Source: Escherichia coli (GTDB lineage: Bacteria; Pseudomonadota; Gammaproteobacteria; Enterobacterales; Enterobacteriaceae). From it: a DNA stretch of 64,000 nt. Made by a program: the position numbers and the translations under genes. The number at the start of each line of letters is the position of its first letter. The stretch's first letter is position 1. Location: the NCBI RefSeq assembly GCF_003018115.1, contig NZ_CP027457.1. The stretch is one strand, 5' to 3'. The notes beneath the pieces were generated by a model. That model saw only the letters and a program-made list of their open reading frames with translations, was not told the origin of the DNA and did not search any database. Below are positions 34,300-55,760 of this stretch, piece by piece.

Positions 34300-34458
34300 A
34301 GATTTTAGTTTGTATAGAGTTATTTTAAATATTTACCTTTTTAATCAATGGATTAAGCGCTCTTTAACATAATGGATGTGTTGTTTGTGTGATACTGTAA
34401 AGTTGGTAGATTGTGACTGGCTTAAAAAATCATTAATTAATAATAGGTTATGTTTAGA
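34300..34458 (+). promoter_or_regulatory. type I-E CRISPR leader (AT-rich, ends ...CTGGCTTAAAAAATCATTAATTAATAATAGGTTATGTTTAGA immediately before repeat 1)
   Basis: AT-rich segment directly upstream of the first full repeat; resembles the E. coli leader as recalled. Confidence 0.65.
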
Positions 34459-35219
34459 GAGTTCCCCGCGCCAGCGGGGATAAACCGAAAATTGGGACGC
34501 TAACTCATGGGTCTGGGTAGAGTTCCCCGCGCCAGCGGGGATAAACCGGGAAAAACGCCTGTGGTTGGGGCTGAACCAGGGAGTTCCCCGCGCCAGCGGG
34601 GATAAACCGTCGGCGCGCTCTCTGTAGAGCGGTTGTGTGATGAGTTCCCCGCGCCAGCGGGGATAAACCGTCGTCGGGTCCGACAGGGGTCGGTTGTTCG
34701 CCGAGTTCCCCGCGCCAGCGGGGATAAACCGGCTTAATAAACGAGGAGAATACCGATGTTTTTAAGTTCCCCGCGCCAGCGGGGATAAACCGTTCTTTTA
34801 ATGGCGTCAGGCCCATTACAGAGCGAGTTCCCCGCGCCAGCGGGGATAAACCGTTTTGACGATTATTCTAAAAGTGAAAATAGCAGAGTTCCCCGCGCCA
34901 GCGGGGATAAACCGCACGCTGGAGTGACCGGGTGGCAGAGCATGACGAGTTCCCCGCGCCAGCGGGGATAAACCGCCATTTCATCATGAACGGCGGAAAT
35001 ATCGTGGGAGTTCCCCGCGCCAGCGGGGATAAACCGGTCAGTTCCCGGTTGATATATATGATGAGCATGAGTTCCCCGCGCCAGCGGGGATAAACCGCGC
35101 AATGGCGCGGCGATTGCTCTCGAGATCAAGTGTTCCCCGCGCCAGCGGGGATAAACCGGGTACAAAAGAGGCCCCATTCTGGCAGGGCTCGAGTTCCCCG
35201 CGCCAGTGGGGATAAACCA
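34459..35219 (+). CRISPR. type I-E CRISPR array, 13 repeats and 12 spacers of 32 nt, repeat GAGTTCCCCGCGCCAGCGGGGATAAACCG
   Basis: Repeats start at 34459, 34520, 34581, 34642, 34703, 34764, 34825, 34886, 34947, 35008, 35069, 35130, 35191 (61-bp period); variants AAG.. at 34764 and GTG.. at 35130; last repeat degenerate (..CCAGTGGGGATAAACCA). Confidence 0.97.
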
Positions 35220-35672: not shown

Positions 35673-35811
35673 ATATTCCTTGTAAAAACAGGGATAAACC
35701 GAACTAGTTGAAGTTTTTATTATGTTCCCTGCATCAGCGGGGATAAACCGGACTTGTTATCATTTTTTAAGTTGTCGAACTTATGTTCCCCGCGTCAGCG
35801 GGGATAACCAT
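35673..35811 (+). CRISPR. degenerate CRISPR remnant (partial repeat ending 35701; repeats at 35722-35750 and 35783-35811; one 32-nt spacer)
   Basis: ATGTTCCCTGCATCAGCGGGGATAAACCG and ATGTTCCCCGCGTCAGCGGGGATAACCAT with 61-bp period. Confidence 0.8.
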
Positions 35812-51651: not shown

Positions 51652-51915
51652 ATATTGCCGGATAAATTAAACGCCTCTGTCAGAAATGATGGGGGCGTTT
51701 TTATTTTGCGAGCAGCATTCCTGATTTTAAACGTGAACGCCGCTGGAAGAATTATCAGGTATAGAATGGCGTCGGGTGCTTGAGGCTGTCTGGCGTTAAG
51801 CATTCGCGAGGTTCCAGATGGACAAAAGCCCCAGGCGATATTTCTATCAACCTGAGGCTTACGTTCGAACCCAAACAATTCGAATGTTAGTCTCTTCTTT
51901 GCAGGGAGGCAAGAC

Positions 51916-52068
51916 ATGCTGACAAAATATGCCCTTGTGGCAATCATCGTACTGTGTTGTACAGTACTGGGATTCACGCTGATGGTAGGTGACTCGTTGT
52001 GTGAGTTGAGTATCAGAGAACGTGGTATGGAGTTTAAGGCAGTTCTCGCTTACGAATCGAAGAAGTAG
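51916..52068 (+). CDS. Hok/Gef-family type I toxin (50 aa)
   Basis: [50 protein letters not shown]: one TM helix plus conserved SLCEL...AYES signature; RBS GGGAGG at 51904-51909; a 34-codon upstream ORF (51818-51922) ends overlapping the start codon. Confidence 0.75.
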
Positions 52069-52261
52069 CCACCACGCGGGGGTAAAACCCCGCGTACTGA
52101 ATTGTGATGGTTTGGTCTCCTGCACCCTTTTTTAAAATTTATATTTTTTATGTGAATATATAGTCTCTATTTATTATTATGAATTTCAAATGAAAATCAT
52201 TAATTTATTCATAATGTAAATGTTTTATTGGCTGATATATATCACAGATAATTTTTAAAAT

Positions 52262-54358
52262 ATGCGTAAATATCCTTTAAGTTTACTGAAGGATAAAAAT
52301 ATTGTGACTTTTTTTGATTTCTGGGGAAAAACCCGACGCGGCGAGAAAGACGGGGGCGACGACTATCACCTTCTTTGCTGGCATTCGCTGGATGTAGCCG
52401 CGATGGGCTATTTAATGGTTAAAAGAAATTGCTTCGGGCTGGCTGATTATTTTCGTCAATTAGGGATTTCTGACAAGGAACAGGCGGCTCAATTTTTCGC
52501 CTGGTTGCTGTGCTGGCACGATATTGGAAAATTTGCCCGCTCTTTTCAACAACTTTACCTGCCCCCTGAACTCAAGATTCAGGAAAGTGCCAGAAAAAAT
52601 TACGAAAAAATCTCTCATTCAACGCTGGGCTACTGGTTGTGGAATCATTATTTAAGTGAATGTCAGGAGTTACTTCCTTCATCTTCGCTCTCTCCGCGCA
52701 AACTTAGGCGAGTGATAGAAATGTGGATGCCCGTGACGACAGGGCATCATGGTCGGCCCCCTGATCGTATGGATGAATTGGATAATTTTCTGCCTGAAGA
52801 CAAAGCTGCAGCACGAGATTTTCTCCTTGAAATCAAACCACTGTTTCCGCTCATAGAGATCCCCGCATTCTGGGATGATGATGAGGGCATTGAACTTATA
52901 AAACACCTTTCCTGGTATATCTCTGCAACCGTCGTGCTCGCAGACTGGACGGGTTCGTCAACGCGATTTTTTCCACGCGTCGCACACCCAATGGATATTA
53001 AAGGTTACTGGCAGAAAACTTTAATTCAGGCTCAAAACGCCTTAACCGTCTTTCCTCTAAAAGCAAAAGTCGCGCCTTTCAACGGAATTAATACGCTGTT
53101 TCCTTTTATTGAGAATCCGACACCGTTACAGCAAAAGGTGCTGGATCTGGATATCAGCCAGCAAGGACCGCAGTTATTTATTCTGGAAGATGTGACTGGC
53201 GCAGGTAAAACAGAAGCGGCGCTTATCCTGGCGCACAGGTTGATAGCTGCGGGGAAAGCTCAGGGGCTGTTTTTTGGTCTGCCAACAATGGCAACGGCCA
53301 ATGCCATGTACGATCGGCTGGTCAAAACCTGGCTTGCTTTCTATTCGCCAGAATCCCGCCCCAGCCTGGTGCTGGCACATAGTGCCCGCACATTAATGGA
53401 CCGCTTTAATGAATCACTCTGGTCTGGTGATTTAGTCGGGTCAGAAGAACCGGATGAACAAACGTTCAGTCAGGGATGTGCGGCCTGGTTTGCCGACAGT
53501 AACAAGAAGGCGTTGCTGGCTGAAATTGGCGTCGGCACGCTGGATCAGGCGATAATGGCGGTGATGCCGTTCAAACATAATAATCTGCGGCTTCTGGGGC
53601 TGAGTAACAAAATCCTGCTGGCTGATGAGATCCACGCCTGTGACGCTTACATGTCGTGCATTCTTGAAGGGTTGATCGAGCGGCAGGCGCGTGGCGGAAA
53701 CAGCGTTATTTTGCTTTCTGCCACGTTATCTCAACAGCAGCGCGACAAACTCGTCGCTGCCTTTGCGCGGGGTACAGAGGGCCAGCAAGAAGCTCCGTTC
53801 CTGGAAAAGGATGATTACCCCTGGCTGACGCATGTCACGAAATCCGATGTGAACTCACACCGGGTAGCGACGCGCAAAGACGTTGAGCGTAGCGTCAGCG
53901 TGGGTTGGCTTCATAGTGAACAAGAGTGTATTGCGCGTATCGAATCGGCGGTAAGTCAGGGGAAATGCATCGCCTGGATCCGGAATTCTGTCGATGACGC
54001 TATTAAGGTTCATCGTCAGCTGCTTGCCCGCGGCGTCATTCCTGCTTCCAGCCTTTCACTTTTTCATAGCCGCTTTGCTTTTAGCGATCGCCAGCGAATT
54101 GAAACGGAAACGCTGGCACGCTTTGGTAAATATTGTAGTTTACAGAGAGCGTCGCAAGTCATTGTTTGTACACAAGTAATTGAGCAAAGCGTGGATATTG
54201 ACCTGGACGAAATGATCTCCGACCTGGCCCCTGTTGATTTGCTGATTCAGCGAGCAGGACGATTACAGCGGCATATCCGCGATATTAATGGTCAGTTAAA
54301 GCGTGACGTGTTCCCCGCGCCAGCGGGGATAAACCGGGTACACGGATATTCTGTCTAA
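52262..54358 (+). pseudogene. cas3: cas3 (type I-E), truncated at its 3' end: about 682 codons of Cas3 fused in frame to a CRISPR repeat at 54307/54308
   Basis: HD motifs (HSLDVAAM, WHDIGKF), Walker A (TGAGKTEAA), DEIH box (LADEIHACD), motif VI (QRAGRLQRH); the final 17 ORF codons (VFPAPAGINRVHGYSV) translate repeat and spacer. Confidence 0.85.
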
Positions 54359-54702
54359 AAGTTAACTAGTGTTCCCCGCGCCAGCGGGGATAAACCGACT
54401 GATAACGCCGGAGCCTTCTTTTTCAGCAAGTGTTCCCCGCGCCAGCGGGGATAAACCGAGGTTGACGTTGATTTTGTTCGTTATGTTGCCGTGTTCCCCG
54501 CGCCAGCGGGGATAAACCGACCTCGACAATGACACGGGCGCGAAAACAATCGTGTTCCCCGCGCCAGCGGGGATAAACCGTCGGTGGCTGGATTGAAAAA
54601 GAAGATAATCTGGTGTTCCCCGCGTCAGCGGGGATAAACCGGGCGCACTGGATGCGATGATGGATATCACTTAGAATTCCCCGCCCCTGCGGTAGAACTC
54701 CC
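54308..54702 (+). CRISPR. type I-E CRISPR array, 7 repeats and 6 spacers, repeat GTGTTCCCCGCGCCAGCGGGGATAAACCG; no leader
   Basis: Repeats start at 54308, 54369, 54430, 54491, 54552, 54613 (GCGTCAG variant) and 54674 (degenerate terminal repeat); spacers 32 nt. Confidence 0.96.
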
Positions 54703-54722: not shown

Positions 54723-55760
54723 TCAAGACGCCTTCGCCAGCTCCTTCACCAGCGGTAGCATTATCCGCATAACATCACGGCAGCGACGTTCTATTCTTCC
54801 AGGAAGTGCCTTATCAATATGTTGTTGATTATCCAGTCTTACGTCATGCCAGCTATTTCCCGCCGGGAAGGCAGGTGTTTTTGCGCGTTGCTGATAACCA
54901 TCCTTATTCCCAAGATTCCAGTTAGTCGCTTCCACCGAAAGTACAGCAATGCCCGCTTTGTCGAATATTTCTGCGTCATTACAACACCCAGTGCCTTTCG
55001 GATAATTTTTATTCAAACCCGGATTGGTCGTTGCGGCTATTCCGTGACTGCGCGCAATTGCCAGCGCCCTGTCGCGCGTTAATTTCCTTACTGCTTCAGG
55101 GGTTTTTACACCGCTGTTGAAATACAATTTATCGCCAACAATTAAGTTATCGAGATTAATCACCAGCAGCGTATTTTTCTTTTCGGTGTCACTCATCCGC
55201 TTGAGTAAATTCTCAGCGCCTAATTTCCCTTCCTCTTCGCCGCTGGTCGCCACAAATCGAATACCATACTCGGTAGGCGTATTTTTCAGGCGTTCTGCCA
55301 ATTCCAGCATGACACCTAAACCTGCGGCGTTATCATCCATTCCTTGTAACGTCAGCCCGCCGAGATTGGCATCGGCGTCAGCATCGCTCAGCGGGGCGTA
55401 AGTATCCAGATGCGCCATAATGATGATCTGCTGCGGCGCTTTGCCTTCATGAGCGGCAATCACCGTACTTCCTGTCACGTTATGCCAGTTCTTGCGATTA
55501 TCGCGGGCGGTATAAATATACCGACTATTAAATGTCCGAATATCACTGCGATAACCCATTTGCTGAAACTGTTGGCGAATATAATCGGCAGATAACATTT
55601 CTGCAGGAGTTCCGGTCATGCGTCCCGGAAAGAAAGTAGCAATATGTCGTGCCTGAGTATTAGCAAAATCGCCAGGTTTAGGTGACGAGGCGTGTACGGG
55701 GAGAATAAAGCATACGCCGAGCGCCAGGGCAGCGGTACGGTGGCGCAATGCGGAAAACAT
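54723..55760 (-). CDS. iap: alkaline phosphatase isozyme conversion aminopeptidase
   Basis: 345-aa ORF MFSALRHRTAALALGVCFILPVHA... Confidence 0.88.
   Translation of the reverse strand: MFSALRHRTAALALGVCFILPVHASSPKPGDFANTQARHIATFFPGRMTGTPAEMLSADYIRQQFQQMGYRSDIRTFNSRYIYTARDNRKNWHNVTGSTVIAAHEGKAPQQIIIMAHLDTYAPLSDADADANLGGLTLQGMDDNAAGLGVMLELAERLKNTPTEYGIRFVATSGEEEGKLGAENLLKRMSDTEKKNTLLVINLDNLIVGDKLYFNSGVKTPEAVRKLTRDRALAIARSHGIAATTNPGLNKNYPKGTGCCNDAEIFDKAGIAVLSVEATNWNLGNKDGYQQRAKTPAFPAGNSWHDVRLDNQQHIDKALPGRIERRCRDVMRIMLPLVKELAKAS

What the first reader, a model, noticed from the sequence alone, without database searches (positions are those of the whole stretch)
54308..54702. Leaderless, cas-less type I-E array (6 spacers) retained next to iap
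Seven repeats survive, the terminal one degenerate, but the first repeat abuts cas3 coding sequence instead of a leader. New spacers cannot be added at the normal leader-proximal position, and with no Cas6e present the transcript cannot be processed into crRNA. The six 32-nt spacers are therefore a frozen record of past encounters. Any transcription would have to come from cas3 read-through.
Basis: seen in the sequence. Interest (0 to 1): 0.5.

Follow-up and report, generated by a model that had tools for sequence, protein, structure and literature searches.

The report
Orphaned CRISPR array fused to truncated cas3
This is a dead remnant of the E. coli type I-E CRISPR locus, an ordinary kind of decay; what deserves follow-up is that its deletion, like at least ten other independent ones in E. 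coli and Salmonella, ends exactly at the first base of a CRISPR repeat.

Summary
Window 54308-54702 holds six 29-nt type I-E repeats, one degenerate terminal repeat and six 32-nt spacers, lying between a truncated cas3 and iap in an E. coli cysH-iap (CRISPR-I) locus.

cas3 (non-K-12 "E1" variant) is intact for codons 1-682. It then runs straight into repeat nt 1. At least 6.6 kb is missing: the cas3 3' end, casA-E, cas1, cas2 and the leader. No other cas gene and no CRISPR-I leader occur in the 64 kb.

The same junction is present in 12 of 5,426 complete E. coli genomes, where PGAP annotates a cas3 pseudogene plus CRISPR. It is identical by descent. The arrays in these genomes differ only by loss or duplication of repeat-spacer units, so the record is eroding rather than frozen.

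One spacer has a perfect protospacer with an AAG PAM in a lambdoid prophage. None matches the phage or plasmid collections.

Loci with only a cas3 pseudogene were already described in 2010, so the object itself is ordinary.

One thing was unexpected. Nine independent E. coli cas3-to-array deletions and two Salmonella ones all end precisely at repeat nt 1, and one ends demonstrably at the leader/first-repeat boundary. They show no microhomology and no PAM signature. This points to the Cas1-Cas2 integration site as the fixed breakpoint, which is untested.

The parts
52262..54307 (+). cas3 pseudogene. It covers codons 1-682 of an 899-codon E1-variant cas3. The HD nuclease and nearly the whole helicase core are kept; the C-terminal ~217 residues are lost.
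   Evidence: tblastn gives 99.7% identity to intact Cas3 over residues 1-682. NCBIfam matches are cas3_HD at 38-233 and cas3_core at 306-676. PGAP calls the same stretch a pseudogene in 12 genomes.
52262..54358 (+). Open reading frame of 698 aa: Cas3 residues 1-682 plus 16 residues (VFPAPAGINRVHGYSV) encoded by repeat 1 and the start of spacer 1.
   Evidence: The exact protein is in NCBI and UniRef (ELH35798.1, OSK92404.1, A0A1X3IWA6) on 40 contigs.
54307..54308 (+). Deletion junction: cas3 nt 2046 joined to repeat nt 1. Intact cas3 continues GGAAAGG, so only the G is shared.
   Evidence: At least 6,609 bp are missing relative to HS30-1 (L008 11081-17689).
54308..54702 (+). Type I-E (CRISPR2.1 / CRISPR-I) array: six good repeats, six 32-nt spacers and a degenerate terminal repeat at 54674-54702.
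54337..54368 (+). Spacer 1 (my number 17), GGTACACGG... It lies mid-array in cas-positive strains.
54398..54429 (+). Spacer 2 (number 18), ACTGATAAC...
54459..54490 (+). Spacer 3 (number 19), AGGTTGACG... It has a perfect protospacer preceded by AAG in a lambdoid prophage integrated at ttcA in strain STEC384.
54520..54551 (+). Spacer 4 (number 44), ACCTCGACA...
54581..54612 (+). Spacer 5 (number 45), TCGGTGGCT...
54642..54673 (+). Spacer 6 (number 23), GGCGCACTGG... This is the ancient terminal spacer shared with K-12 and with most of the other arrays examined.
54723..55760 (-). iap, convergent with the array. It marks the distal border of the CRISPR-I locus.
51774..52068 (+). hok/sok module between cysH and cas3. 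It is a marker of the E1 arrangement of the locus.
   Evidence: Rfam sok scores 113 bits at 51774-51931. The Hok ORF is at 51916-52068. Almendros 2014 gives the association.
34380..35219 (+). Second I-E array (CRISPR-II / CRISPR2.3): 13 repeats at 34459-35219 and 12 spacers, with its own leader at about 34380-34458. It depends on the deleted cas operon, so it is orphaned too.

Best explanation
The region is the non-functional remnant of an E. coli type I-E CRISPR-I locus (E1 variant, order cysH-hok/sok-cas3-casABCDE-cas1-cas2-leader-array-iap).

A single deletion of at least 6.6 kb joined cas3 nt 2046 to the first nucleotide of a repeat. It removed the cas3 C-terminal domain, all Cascade genes including cas6e, cas1-cas2 and the leader with its promoter and IHF site.

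Consequences (inferred from established I-E biology):
- No new spacers can be integrated.
- No mature crRNA can be made.
- There can be no interference.
- Any transcript of the array must start at the cas3 promoter.

The allele arose once and is shared by descent by a small clade (O169:H41 ETEC, O8:H8 and others). Since then the array has only lost, and once duplicated, repeat-spacer units by repeat-repeat recombination. The window retains 6 of at least 16 ancestral spacers.

The spacers are genuine old immunity records, and at least one derives from a lambdoid phage with an AAG PAM.
For: - Anatomy and junction.
- Cas3 domains kept and lost.
- No other Cas protein and no CRISPR-I leader in the window.
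- Same junction in 12 of 5,426 complete genomes.
- Single origin: cas3' differs by 0-3 nt in 2,046 and iap by 0-3 nt in 1,038 among junction carriers.
- Array variants are explained by deletions plus one duplication.
- Shared ordered spacers with cas-positive arrays, with 4-19 further units on the leader side.
- AAG-flanked protospacer for spacer 3.
- No self-match in the window or in the nearest genomes (one place per record).
- No terminator-like site between cas3 and the array, and no promoter signal above chance.
- Literature on the locus and on degraded versions of it.
Against: - The whole genome of the window's strain is not available, so a cas operon elsewhere (for example on a plasmid) cannot be excluded directly.
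- Transcription and processing were not measured.
- A 9-of-12 promoter-like match lies inside spacer 4 (54523-54550), but the number of such matches is at chance level.
Confidence: 0.9

Rival explanations
1. The junction was made at the Cas1-Cas2 integration site. A top-strand 3'-OH end inside cas3, for example a broken or RecBCD-processed chromosome end, was joined to the 5' end of a repeat. Either the integrase did this itself (a half-site integration using the chromosome as the 'prespacer'), or a host ligase did so after an integrase nick. The system thereby deleted its own operon. This concerns the origin of the junction and is compatible with the best explanation.
For: - Nine independent E. 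coli deletions have different cas3 breakpoints: nt 1356, 1470, 1555, 1569, 1672, 1694, 2046, 2169 and 2459.
- Two Salmonella deletions have breakpoints at about nt 2029 and at nt 1787.
- All eleven keep a complete repeat from nt 1.
- Of ten E. coli deletions that remove the leader and that I examined at the DNA level, nine fit. Chance is about 4e-13 if the phase in the 61-nt period were random.
- Overlap at the junction is 0-1 nt, which is what chance gives.
- In STEC384 the first retained spacer is the leader-proximal spacer of many cas-positive strains. That deletion therefore ended exactly at the leader/first-repeat bond. This bond is the site of the first Cas1-Cas2 attack (review PMC10011333).
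- The same review reports a protospacer hotspot and frequent double-strand breaks just upstream of CRISPR-1.
- Deletions that end inside cas genes instead use 2-4 nt microhomology.
Against: - No experiment links Cas1-Cas2 to deletions.
- Long DNA ends are not known integrase substrates.
- For the window's own clade, the first ancestral spacer (number 16) is never leader-proximal in cas-positive genomes. The junction was therefore either at an internal repeat or was followed by unit loss.
- One casA-to-array deletion (EC596) ends inside a repeat.
- The restriction of left ends to cas3 is unexplained, and no casA|repeat fusion was found.
- The Salmonella cases were recognised from repeat-encoded peptides, which biases that part of the sample.
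Confidence: 0.45
2. A self-spacer was first acquired from cas3 in direct orientation. Homologous recombination between that 32-nt spacer and its protospacer in cas3 then deleted everything between them. This automatically leaves cas3 sequence running up to the next repeat.
For: - It explains an exact repeat boundary with ordinary RecA recombination.
- It explains the direct orientation and the loss of the operon.
- The region upstream of CRISPR-1 is a known source of self-spacers.
- Two of eleven candidate PAM positions (ATG, GAG) are PAMs I recall as interference-competent, which is own knowledge and was not checked here.
Against: - The three bases at -35 to -33 from the junction are ATA, ATG, GAG, CGT, GAA, ATA, CCA, GTG, CAA, GGT and CTT. 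That is 0 of 11 AAG.
- The genuine protospacer of this very array carries AAG.
- There is no CTT after the breakpoint, so flipped spacers are not the answer either.
- No array with a cas3-derived spacer was seen among the loci examined.
Confidence: 0.15
3. This was an ordinary illegitimate (microhomology) deletion that by chance ended at a spacer-repeat boundary, for instance between cas3 ...AGCGTGAC|G and the end of an upstream spacer such as SE11 spacer 5 (...AGCGTAAC|G).
For: An 8-of-9 match exists between the cas3 breakpoint and the end of spacer 5 plus the repeat G. That spacer lies leader-side of spacer 16 in SE11, AR_452 and GMM060. Post hoc, p is about 0.02.
Against: - It cannot explain ten further independent junctions at the same phase without microhomology.
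- It requires later loss of all units between spacer 5 and spacer 16, for which no carrier gives evidence.
Confidence: 0.1
4. Assembly artefact: a collapsed or misjoined contig hides an intact leader and cas operon.
For: None found. Repeats are a classical source of assembly breaks; the Logan contigs L031 and L032 end inside arrays.
Against: - The identical junction is in 12 complete genomes from different laboratories and countries.
- The fusion ORF is on 40 contigs from NCBI, ENA and Logan.
Confidence: 0.01

Closest known systems
E. coli CRISPR-I locus (CRISPR2.1 array with the cas-E1 variant, leader L1 and hok/sok), as in SE11, W and HS30-1
   Same: - Same chromosomal site (cysH-iap) and same 29-nt repeat, 32-nt spacers and 61-nt period.
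- Same degenerate terminal repeat and terminal spacer.
- Spacers 17-18-19 are shared in order.
- cas3 is 99.7% identical over residues 1-682.
   Different: It lacks cas3 codons 683-899, casA-E, cas1, cas2 and the leader. The array is shortened.
Degraded I-E loci in which 'only a cas3 pseudogene is still present' (Salmonella SL92 and SPB7, Shigella flexneri; Touchon & Rocha 2010, PMC2886076)
   Same: Same class of decay: a cas3 remnant plus a short residual array.
   Different: This is a different allele and lineage. The published description does not give breakpoints, and Shigella cases are mostly IS-driven, whereas no IS lies at this junction.
cas-less arrays of E. coli B strains (BL21, REL606) and arrangement G of Almendros et al. 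2014
   Same: The array is retained while the cas genes and leader are gone.
   Different: Those deletions are attributed to recombination between flanking IS elements and leave no cas3 fragment. Here the joint is a direct cas3|repeat fusion.
Half-site spacer-integration intermediate of Cas1-Cas2/IHF (first attack at the leader/first-repeat junction)
   Same: The bond formed is a DNA 3' end joined to the 5' end of the repeat top strand. That is the bond seen at all eleven junctions, and for STEC384 it is at the leader/R1 position.
   Different: The 'donor' would be a chromosomal end kilobases long, not a 33-bp prespacer. There is no PAM, no repeat duplication and no new spacer. The resemblance concerns the bond formed, not a demonstrated reaction.
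Transposase-mediated adjacent deletions
   Same: One fixed endpoint is defined by a recombinase site and the other endpoint is variable and nearby.
   Different: In transposition the fixed end is the nucleophile, whereas here the fixed end would be the target. This is an analogy only.

Membership tests
Type I-E CRISPR array (E. coli CRISPR2.1) | 29-nt partially palindromic repeat GWGTTCCCCGCGCCAGCGGGGATAAACCG with about 32-nt spacers and a 61-nt period | tested here: met
   Six repeats have 0-1 change from the consensus and the spacing is exactly 61 nt.
Type I-E CRISPR array (E. coli CRISPR2.1) | Location between iap and cysH, with a degenerate terminal repeat next to iap | tested here: met
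Type I-E CRISPR array (E. coli CRISPR2.1) | Spacers derived from mobile elements, with an AAG PAM 5' of the protospacer | tested here: met
   Spacer 3 matches 32 of 32 nt in a lambdoid prophage and the match is preceded by AAG. The other five spacers have no match in the phage or plasmid collections. In E. coli genomes, spacers 1, 2, 4 and 5 hit only CRISPR arrays; spacer 6 was not included in that search.
Type I-E CRISPR array (E. coli CRISPR2.1) | AT-rich leader with promoter and IHF site immediately 5' of the first repeat | tested here: not met
   cas3 coding sequence abuts the repeat. The 96-nt L1 leader has no match at this locus.
[quoted passage not shown] | cas1 and cas2 (adaptation module) | tested here: not met
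   tblastn with E1 and E2 Cas1 and Cas2 gives no hit in the 64 kb. The whole genome is not testable.
[quoted passage not shown] | Cascade genes casA-casE, including the Cas6e pre-crRNA endonuclease | tested here: not met
   No hit in the window. The attempt to check the nearest complete genomes with a chimeric query failed.
[quoted passage not shown] | Full-length Cas3 (HD domain, two RecA domains and the C-terminal domain) | tested here: not met
   Only residues 1-682 of 899 remain, and the C-terminal domain is missing.
Degraded CRISPR-I locus with only a cas3 pseudogene | A cas3 fragment is the only cas sequence, next to a residual array at the native site | tested here: met
   with the description of the class.
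Product of Cas1-Cas2 site-1 transesterification (proposed) | Foreign 3' end joined exactly to nt 1 of the repeat top strand | tested here: met
   The window junction and ten independent others fit. This is consistent with the proposal but not specific proof.
Product of Cas1-Cas2 site-1 transesterification (proposed) | The target is the leader-proximal repeat | tested here: inconclusive
   Met for STEC384. For the window clade, spacer 16 is never leader-proximal in cas-positive genomes.
Product of Cas1-Cas2 site-1 transesterification (proposed) | Dependence on Cas1 catalysis and IHF | not testable with these tools
   This needs genetics.

The most novel reading that the evidence does not exclude
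Type I-E CRISPR-Cas loci in E. coli and Salmonella are recurrently destroyed through their own spacer-integration site. A chromosomal DNA end inside cas3 is joined, by Cas1-Cas2 itself or at a Cas1-Cas2 nick, to the 5' edge of the leader-proximal repeat. This excises the operon and the leader and leaves a diagnostic cas3|repeat-nt-1 scar. The window carries one such scar.
Probability: 0.4. Interest if true: 0.75.

Novelty: new variant of a known kind. Interest (0 to 1): 0.45.

Why it matters
The array itself adds nothing new. Cas-less or cas3-pseudogene-only I-E loci are well documented, and this allele is already in RefSeq and UniProt.

What could matter is the recurrent, base-exact junction. 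If the fixed breakpoint reflects integrase chemistry, natural genomes carry scars of an integrase side-reaction. That would be a concrete molecular route for the frequent loss of CRISPR-Cas, a cost of adaptation distinct from autoimmunity by self-targeting spacers. It is also easy to test genetically.

The scar gives a simple bioinformatic marker, namely the phase of the first repeat relative to the upstream sequence. The marker separates integrase-linked losses from IS-mediated or microhomology losses across thousands of genomes.

Tried and rejected
1. **Protospacer searches.** I searched the whole array against the phage and plasmid collections. The hits were repeat-driven matches to other arrays, plus 23-25-nt matches at E = 5. 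I treat these as no protospacers.

2. **Rfam.** A scan of 50-58 kb found only sok.

3. **Checking nearest genomes for cas6e.** I used a chimeric query (junction + cas6e + casE) to see from 'places per record' whether the nearest complete genomes carry cas6e elsewhere. Partial-deletion genomes outranked the target genomes, so the test gave no answer.

4. **Self-spacer model.** It predicts AAG at -35 to -33. I found 0 of 11, and no CTT downstream for flipped spacers.

5. **Microhomology with SE11 spacer 5**. This is possible for this one event but cannot explain the recurrent pattern.
   - A GTTCCCC motif lies 13 nt downstream of the breakpoint in intact cas3. It is out of register with the junction, so I rejected it.

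6. **Chi sites**.
   - All nine E. coli breakpoints lie 5' of the single cas3 Chi at nt 2531.
   - The two Salmonella breakpoints also lie 5' of a Chi at nt 2492.
   - The Salmonella cas3 has a further Chi at nt 1449.
   - The survey could not see left ends in casB-cas2.
   - I draw no conclusion from this.

7. **CasA protein search for casA|repeat fusions**. None was found.

8. **Possible self-targeting in STEC384.** I suspected its prophage protospacer might make STEC384 self-targeting. Its CRISPR-I array lacks that spacer, so I dropped the idea.
Full report
**1. What is there**

The window is Escherichia coli. Megablast of 51600-55800 hits 5,425 of 5,426 complete E. coli genomes. The best hits are at 99.9% identity, to O169:H41 ETEC strains.

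- Gene order is cysJ-cysI-cysH, hok/sok, cas3', array, iap (minus strand), cysD-cysN. This is the CRISPR-I locus of Almendros et al. 2014 (PMC3903273).
- The array runs from 54308 to 54702. It has six repeats of GTGTTCCCCGCGCCAGCGGGGATAAACCG at an exact 61-nt period, six 32-nt spacers, and a degenerate terminal repeat at 54674-54702 with 18 of 29 matches. The terminal repeat is homologous to the K-12 terminal repeat.

**2. The upstream border**

- The ORF 52262-54358 (698 aa) is Cas3 of the non-K-12 "E1" variant. It is 99.7% identical to intact Cas3 of strain HS30-1 over residues 1-682, and only 31% identical to K-12 Cas3.
- Homology stops at 54307 and the repeat starts at 54308.
- Intact cas3 continues GGAAAGGACG..., so only one G is ambiguous.
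- The last 16 codons of the ORF (VFPAPAGINRVHGYSV) are repeat 1 and the start of spacer 1.
- The HD domain and almost the whole helicase core are retained. The C-terminal ~217 residues are gone.
- Relative to HS30-1, 6,609 bp are missing: the cas3 3' end, casA, casB, cas7, cas5, cas6e, cas1, cas2 and the 96-nt leader. Any lost repeat-spacer units come on top of that.
- tblastn with all eight Cas proteins of both E. coli variants finds nothing else in the 64 kb. The CRISPR-I leader is absent.
- The window also contains the CRISPR-II array (34459-35219, 13 repeats) with its own leader, plus a solitary degenerate repeat at 35722-35750. That array depends on the same, now deleted, cas operon.

**3. 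It is real and shared by descent**

- A 109-nt probe across the junction is fully matched in 12 of 5,426 complete genomes: F6326-C1, 2014EL-1345-2, F8111-1SC3, F9792, LR882990, OkiPb01716, 13E0767, JNE23-001, O8:H8 16F5M1D1, WEC and YZLc4-1, plus GF131 at 99.1% in two joined pieces. GF131 in fact carries a different, independent junction, described in section 6.
- PGAP annotates 'cas3, incomplete, missing C-terminus' followed directly by 'CRISPR'.
- Among carriers, cas3' differs by 0-3 nt in 2,046 and iap by 0-3 nt in 1,038. Other cas3 alleles differ by 12-135 nt. The origin was therefore single and recent.
- The exact 698-aa fusion protein is in NCBI and UniRef (for example ELH35798.1 from KTE196, OSK92404.1 from TA447) on 40 contigs.
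- Misassembly is excluded.

**4. The array is eroding, not frozen**

Carriers of the same junction have these spacer orders:

| Strain(s) | Spacer order |
|---|---|
| O8:H8 | 16-17-38-41-39-40-42-21-22-43-44-45-23 |
| OkiPb01716 | 17-18-22-43-44-45-23 |
| 13E0767 | 18-22-43-44-45-23 |
| JNE23-001 | 22-43-43-44-45-23 |
| WEC, YZLc4-1 | 16-45-23 |
| window and O169:H41 strains | 17-18-19-44-45-23 |

- All orders derive from one ancestor of at least 16 spacers by unit deletions and one duplication. Each such change preserves the cas3|repeat joint.
- Spacers 16-19 occur in the same order in cas-positive arrays. There, 4 (SCU-152), 6 (W), 9 (Eco_70239), 15 (SE11, AR_452) or 19 (GMM060) further spacers lie on the leader side.
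- No cas-positive genome has spacer 16 next to the leader.
Relative to living relatives, at least 4-19 units plus spacer 16 are missing.

**5. Spacer targets**

- There are no convincing protospacers in 50,697 phage or 72,556 plasmid records.
- In E. coli genomes, spacers 1-5 hit arrays only, with one exception. Spacer 3 matches 32 of 32 nt, preceded by AAG, in an early-region gene of a lambdoid prophage integrated at ttcA in STEC384.
- This confirms the orientation of the array and its authenticity.
- The nearest genomes show a single place each, and the window has no second match. No self-targeting is evident.

**6. The unexpected part**

While looking for an intact reference I found other, independent cas3-to-array deletions. 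In every one, cas3 homology runs up to the first base of a complete repeat.

| Strain or contig | cas3 breakpoint (nt) |
|---|---|
| GF4-3 | 1356 |
| LHM10-1, AH04 | 1470 |
| N17 | 1555 |
| STEC384 | 1569 |
| A36 | 1672 |
| RMDEC465 | 1694 |
| window clade | 2046 |
| GF131 | 2169 |
| 2020CK-00188 | 2459 |
| Salmonella contig L031 | about 2029 |
| Salmonella contig L032 | 1787 |

- Two of these junctions also exist as abundant fusion proteins: P0084 with 609 member sequences and P0015 with 650.
- The two Salmonella contigs (cysH-sopD-cas3') were found through repeat-encoded C-terminal peptides.
- Of ten E. coli deletions that remove the leader and that I examined at the DNA level, nine fit. The exception is EC596, where casA is joined inside a repeat and keeps only ATAAACCG.
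- If the phase were random within the 61-nt unit, nine of ten would have a probability of about 4e-13.
- Overlap at the joints is 0-1 nt, as expected by chance.
- Deletions that end inside cas genes behave differently. 23CRST035 (cas3 to cas2) and TW10690 (cas3 to cas6e) show 2-4 nt microhomology.
- For STEC384, the first retained spacer is the leader-proximal spacer in many cas-positive strains, seen as a single 118/118 match of leader + R1 + spacer. That deletion therefore ended exactly at the leader/first-repeat bond.

**7. Reading the pattern**

- The bond 'DNA 3' end to 5' end of the repeat top strand' at the leader/first-repeat junction is the product of the first Cas1-Cas2/IHF transesterification.
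- The region upstream of CRISPR-1 is a known site of breaks and a Chi-delimited protospacer hotspot (review PMC10011333).
- The simplest alternative is recombination between a cas3-derived spacer and cas3 itself. It predicts an AAG PAM 35-33 nt upstream of each joint.
- The observed triplets are ATA, ATG, GAG, CGT, GAA, ATA, CCA, GTG, CAA, GGT and CTT. None is AAG.
- I therefore favour an integrase-site-dependent joining, with probability about 0.4-0.45, over self-spacer recombination (about 0.15). Neither has been tested.
- The restriction of left ends to cas3 is unexplained. All E. coli breakpoints lie 5' of the cas3 Chi at nt 2531, and no casA|repeat fusion was found. This may partly reflect how I sampled.
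- I found no paper describing this regularity. The library is incomplete, so prior description cannot be excluded.

**8. Comparison with the known**

- Touchon & Rocha (2010) already reported degraded loci where 'only a cas3 pseudogene is still present', and that I-E cas genes occur nowhere else in these genomes.
- Almendros et al. (2014) catalogued arrangements of the locus, including truncated cas genes.
- A 2025 survey reports incomplete operons in urinary isolates.
- The object is thus a member of a known class, and the allele is already deposited. Only the recurrent base-exact junction, and what it implies, goes beyond that.

**9. Verdict**

- As an array the finding is ordinary.
- As one example of a recurrent scar at the spacer-integration site it deserves a systematic survey and a simple genetic test.
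- Interest is 0.45.

Noticed in passing
window 54307/54308; loci L010, L022-L025, L027-L032: Eleven independent cas3-to-array deletions (nine in E. coli, two in Salmonella) all end exactly at nt 1 of a repeat. They show 0-1 nt overlap and no AAG at the position a self-spacer would require.
   Followed up: partly
window 34380-35219 and 35722-35750: A second type I-E array (CRISPR-II) is present, with 13 GAGTTCCCC-type repeats and 12 spacers, and its leader is intact. About 500 bp downstream lies a solitary degenerate repeat. Both are orphaned by the same cas deletion. Two adjacent spacer pairs are unusually alike (16/32 and 14/32 identities).
   Followed up: partly
window 51774-52068: A complete hok/sok toxin-antitoxin module lies between cysH and cas3 (Rfam sok 113 bits; 50-aa Hok ORF at 51916-52068). 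It may limit how far leftward viable deletions can extend.
   Followed up: no
L001 2046-3158 (F6326-C1), corresponding to window about 52100-52250: The closest complete genomes (O169:H41 and relatives) carry an IS421 between hok/sok and cas3 that the window lacks. The window therefore comes from a relative that predates or lacks that insertion.
   Followed up: no
L021 12001-12032 (STEC384 prophage at ttcA): The protospacer of window spacer 3 lies in a gene annotated 'type I restriction endonuclease', next to the cI/cro-like immunity region of a lambdoid prophage. It is preceded by AAG. STEC384's own CRISPR-I array does not carry this spacer.
   Followed up: yes
L026 4690-4770 (EC596): A casA-to-array deletion keeps only the last 8 nt of a repeat (ATAAACCG, the crRNA 5' handle) after 5 nt of unassigned filler (ACCTA). 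It is the only leader-removing deletion I examined that is not at repeat nt 1.
   Followed up: partly
proteins P0003, P0005, P0006, P0011-P0014, P0130, P0148, P0223: Public databases hold in-frame fusion proteins Cas3-Cas1, Cas3-Cas6e, Cas3-Cas7, Cas3-CasA, CasA-Cas1 and CasA-Cas7. They come from internal deletions of the E. coli and Salmonella cas operon, and some are annotated under the name of the downstream gene.
   Followed up: no
L008 11565, 12857, 15597; L033 11449, 12492, 16437, 17112: Properly oriented Chi sites lie inside the cas operon. All nine E. coli breakpoints are 5' of the cas3 Chi at nt 2531, and both Salmonella breakpoints lie between two cas3 Chi sites. The significance is unclear because of how the sample was drawn.
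   Followed up: partly
L015 (JNE23-001 array): A tandem duplication of one repeat-spacer unit (spacer 43) occurs in a cas-less array. Arrays therefore change by duplication as well as by loss, without Cas1-Cas2.
   Followed up: no
proteins P0008, P0010, P0096, P0113, P0251: cas3 alleles occur with internal in-frame deletions. One has a frameshift in the C7 run just downstream of the window's breakpoint (GTTCCCCCCCTG). This indicates frequent decay of cas3 itself.
   Followed up: no
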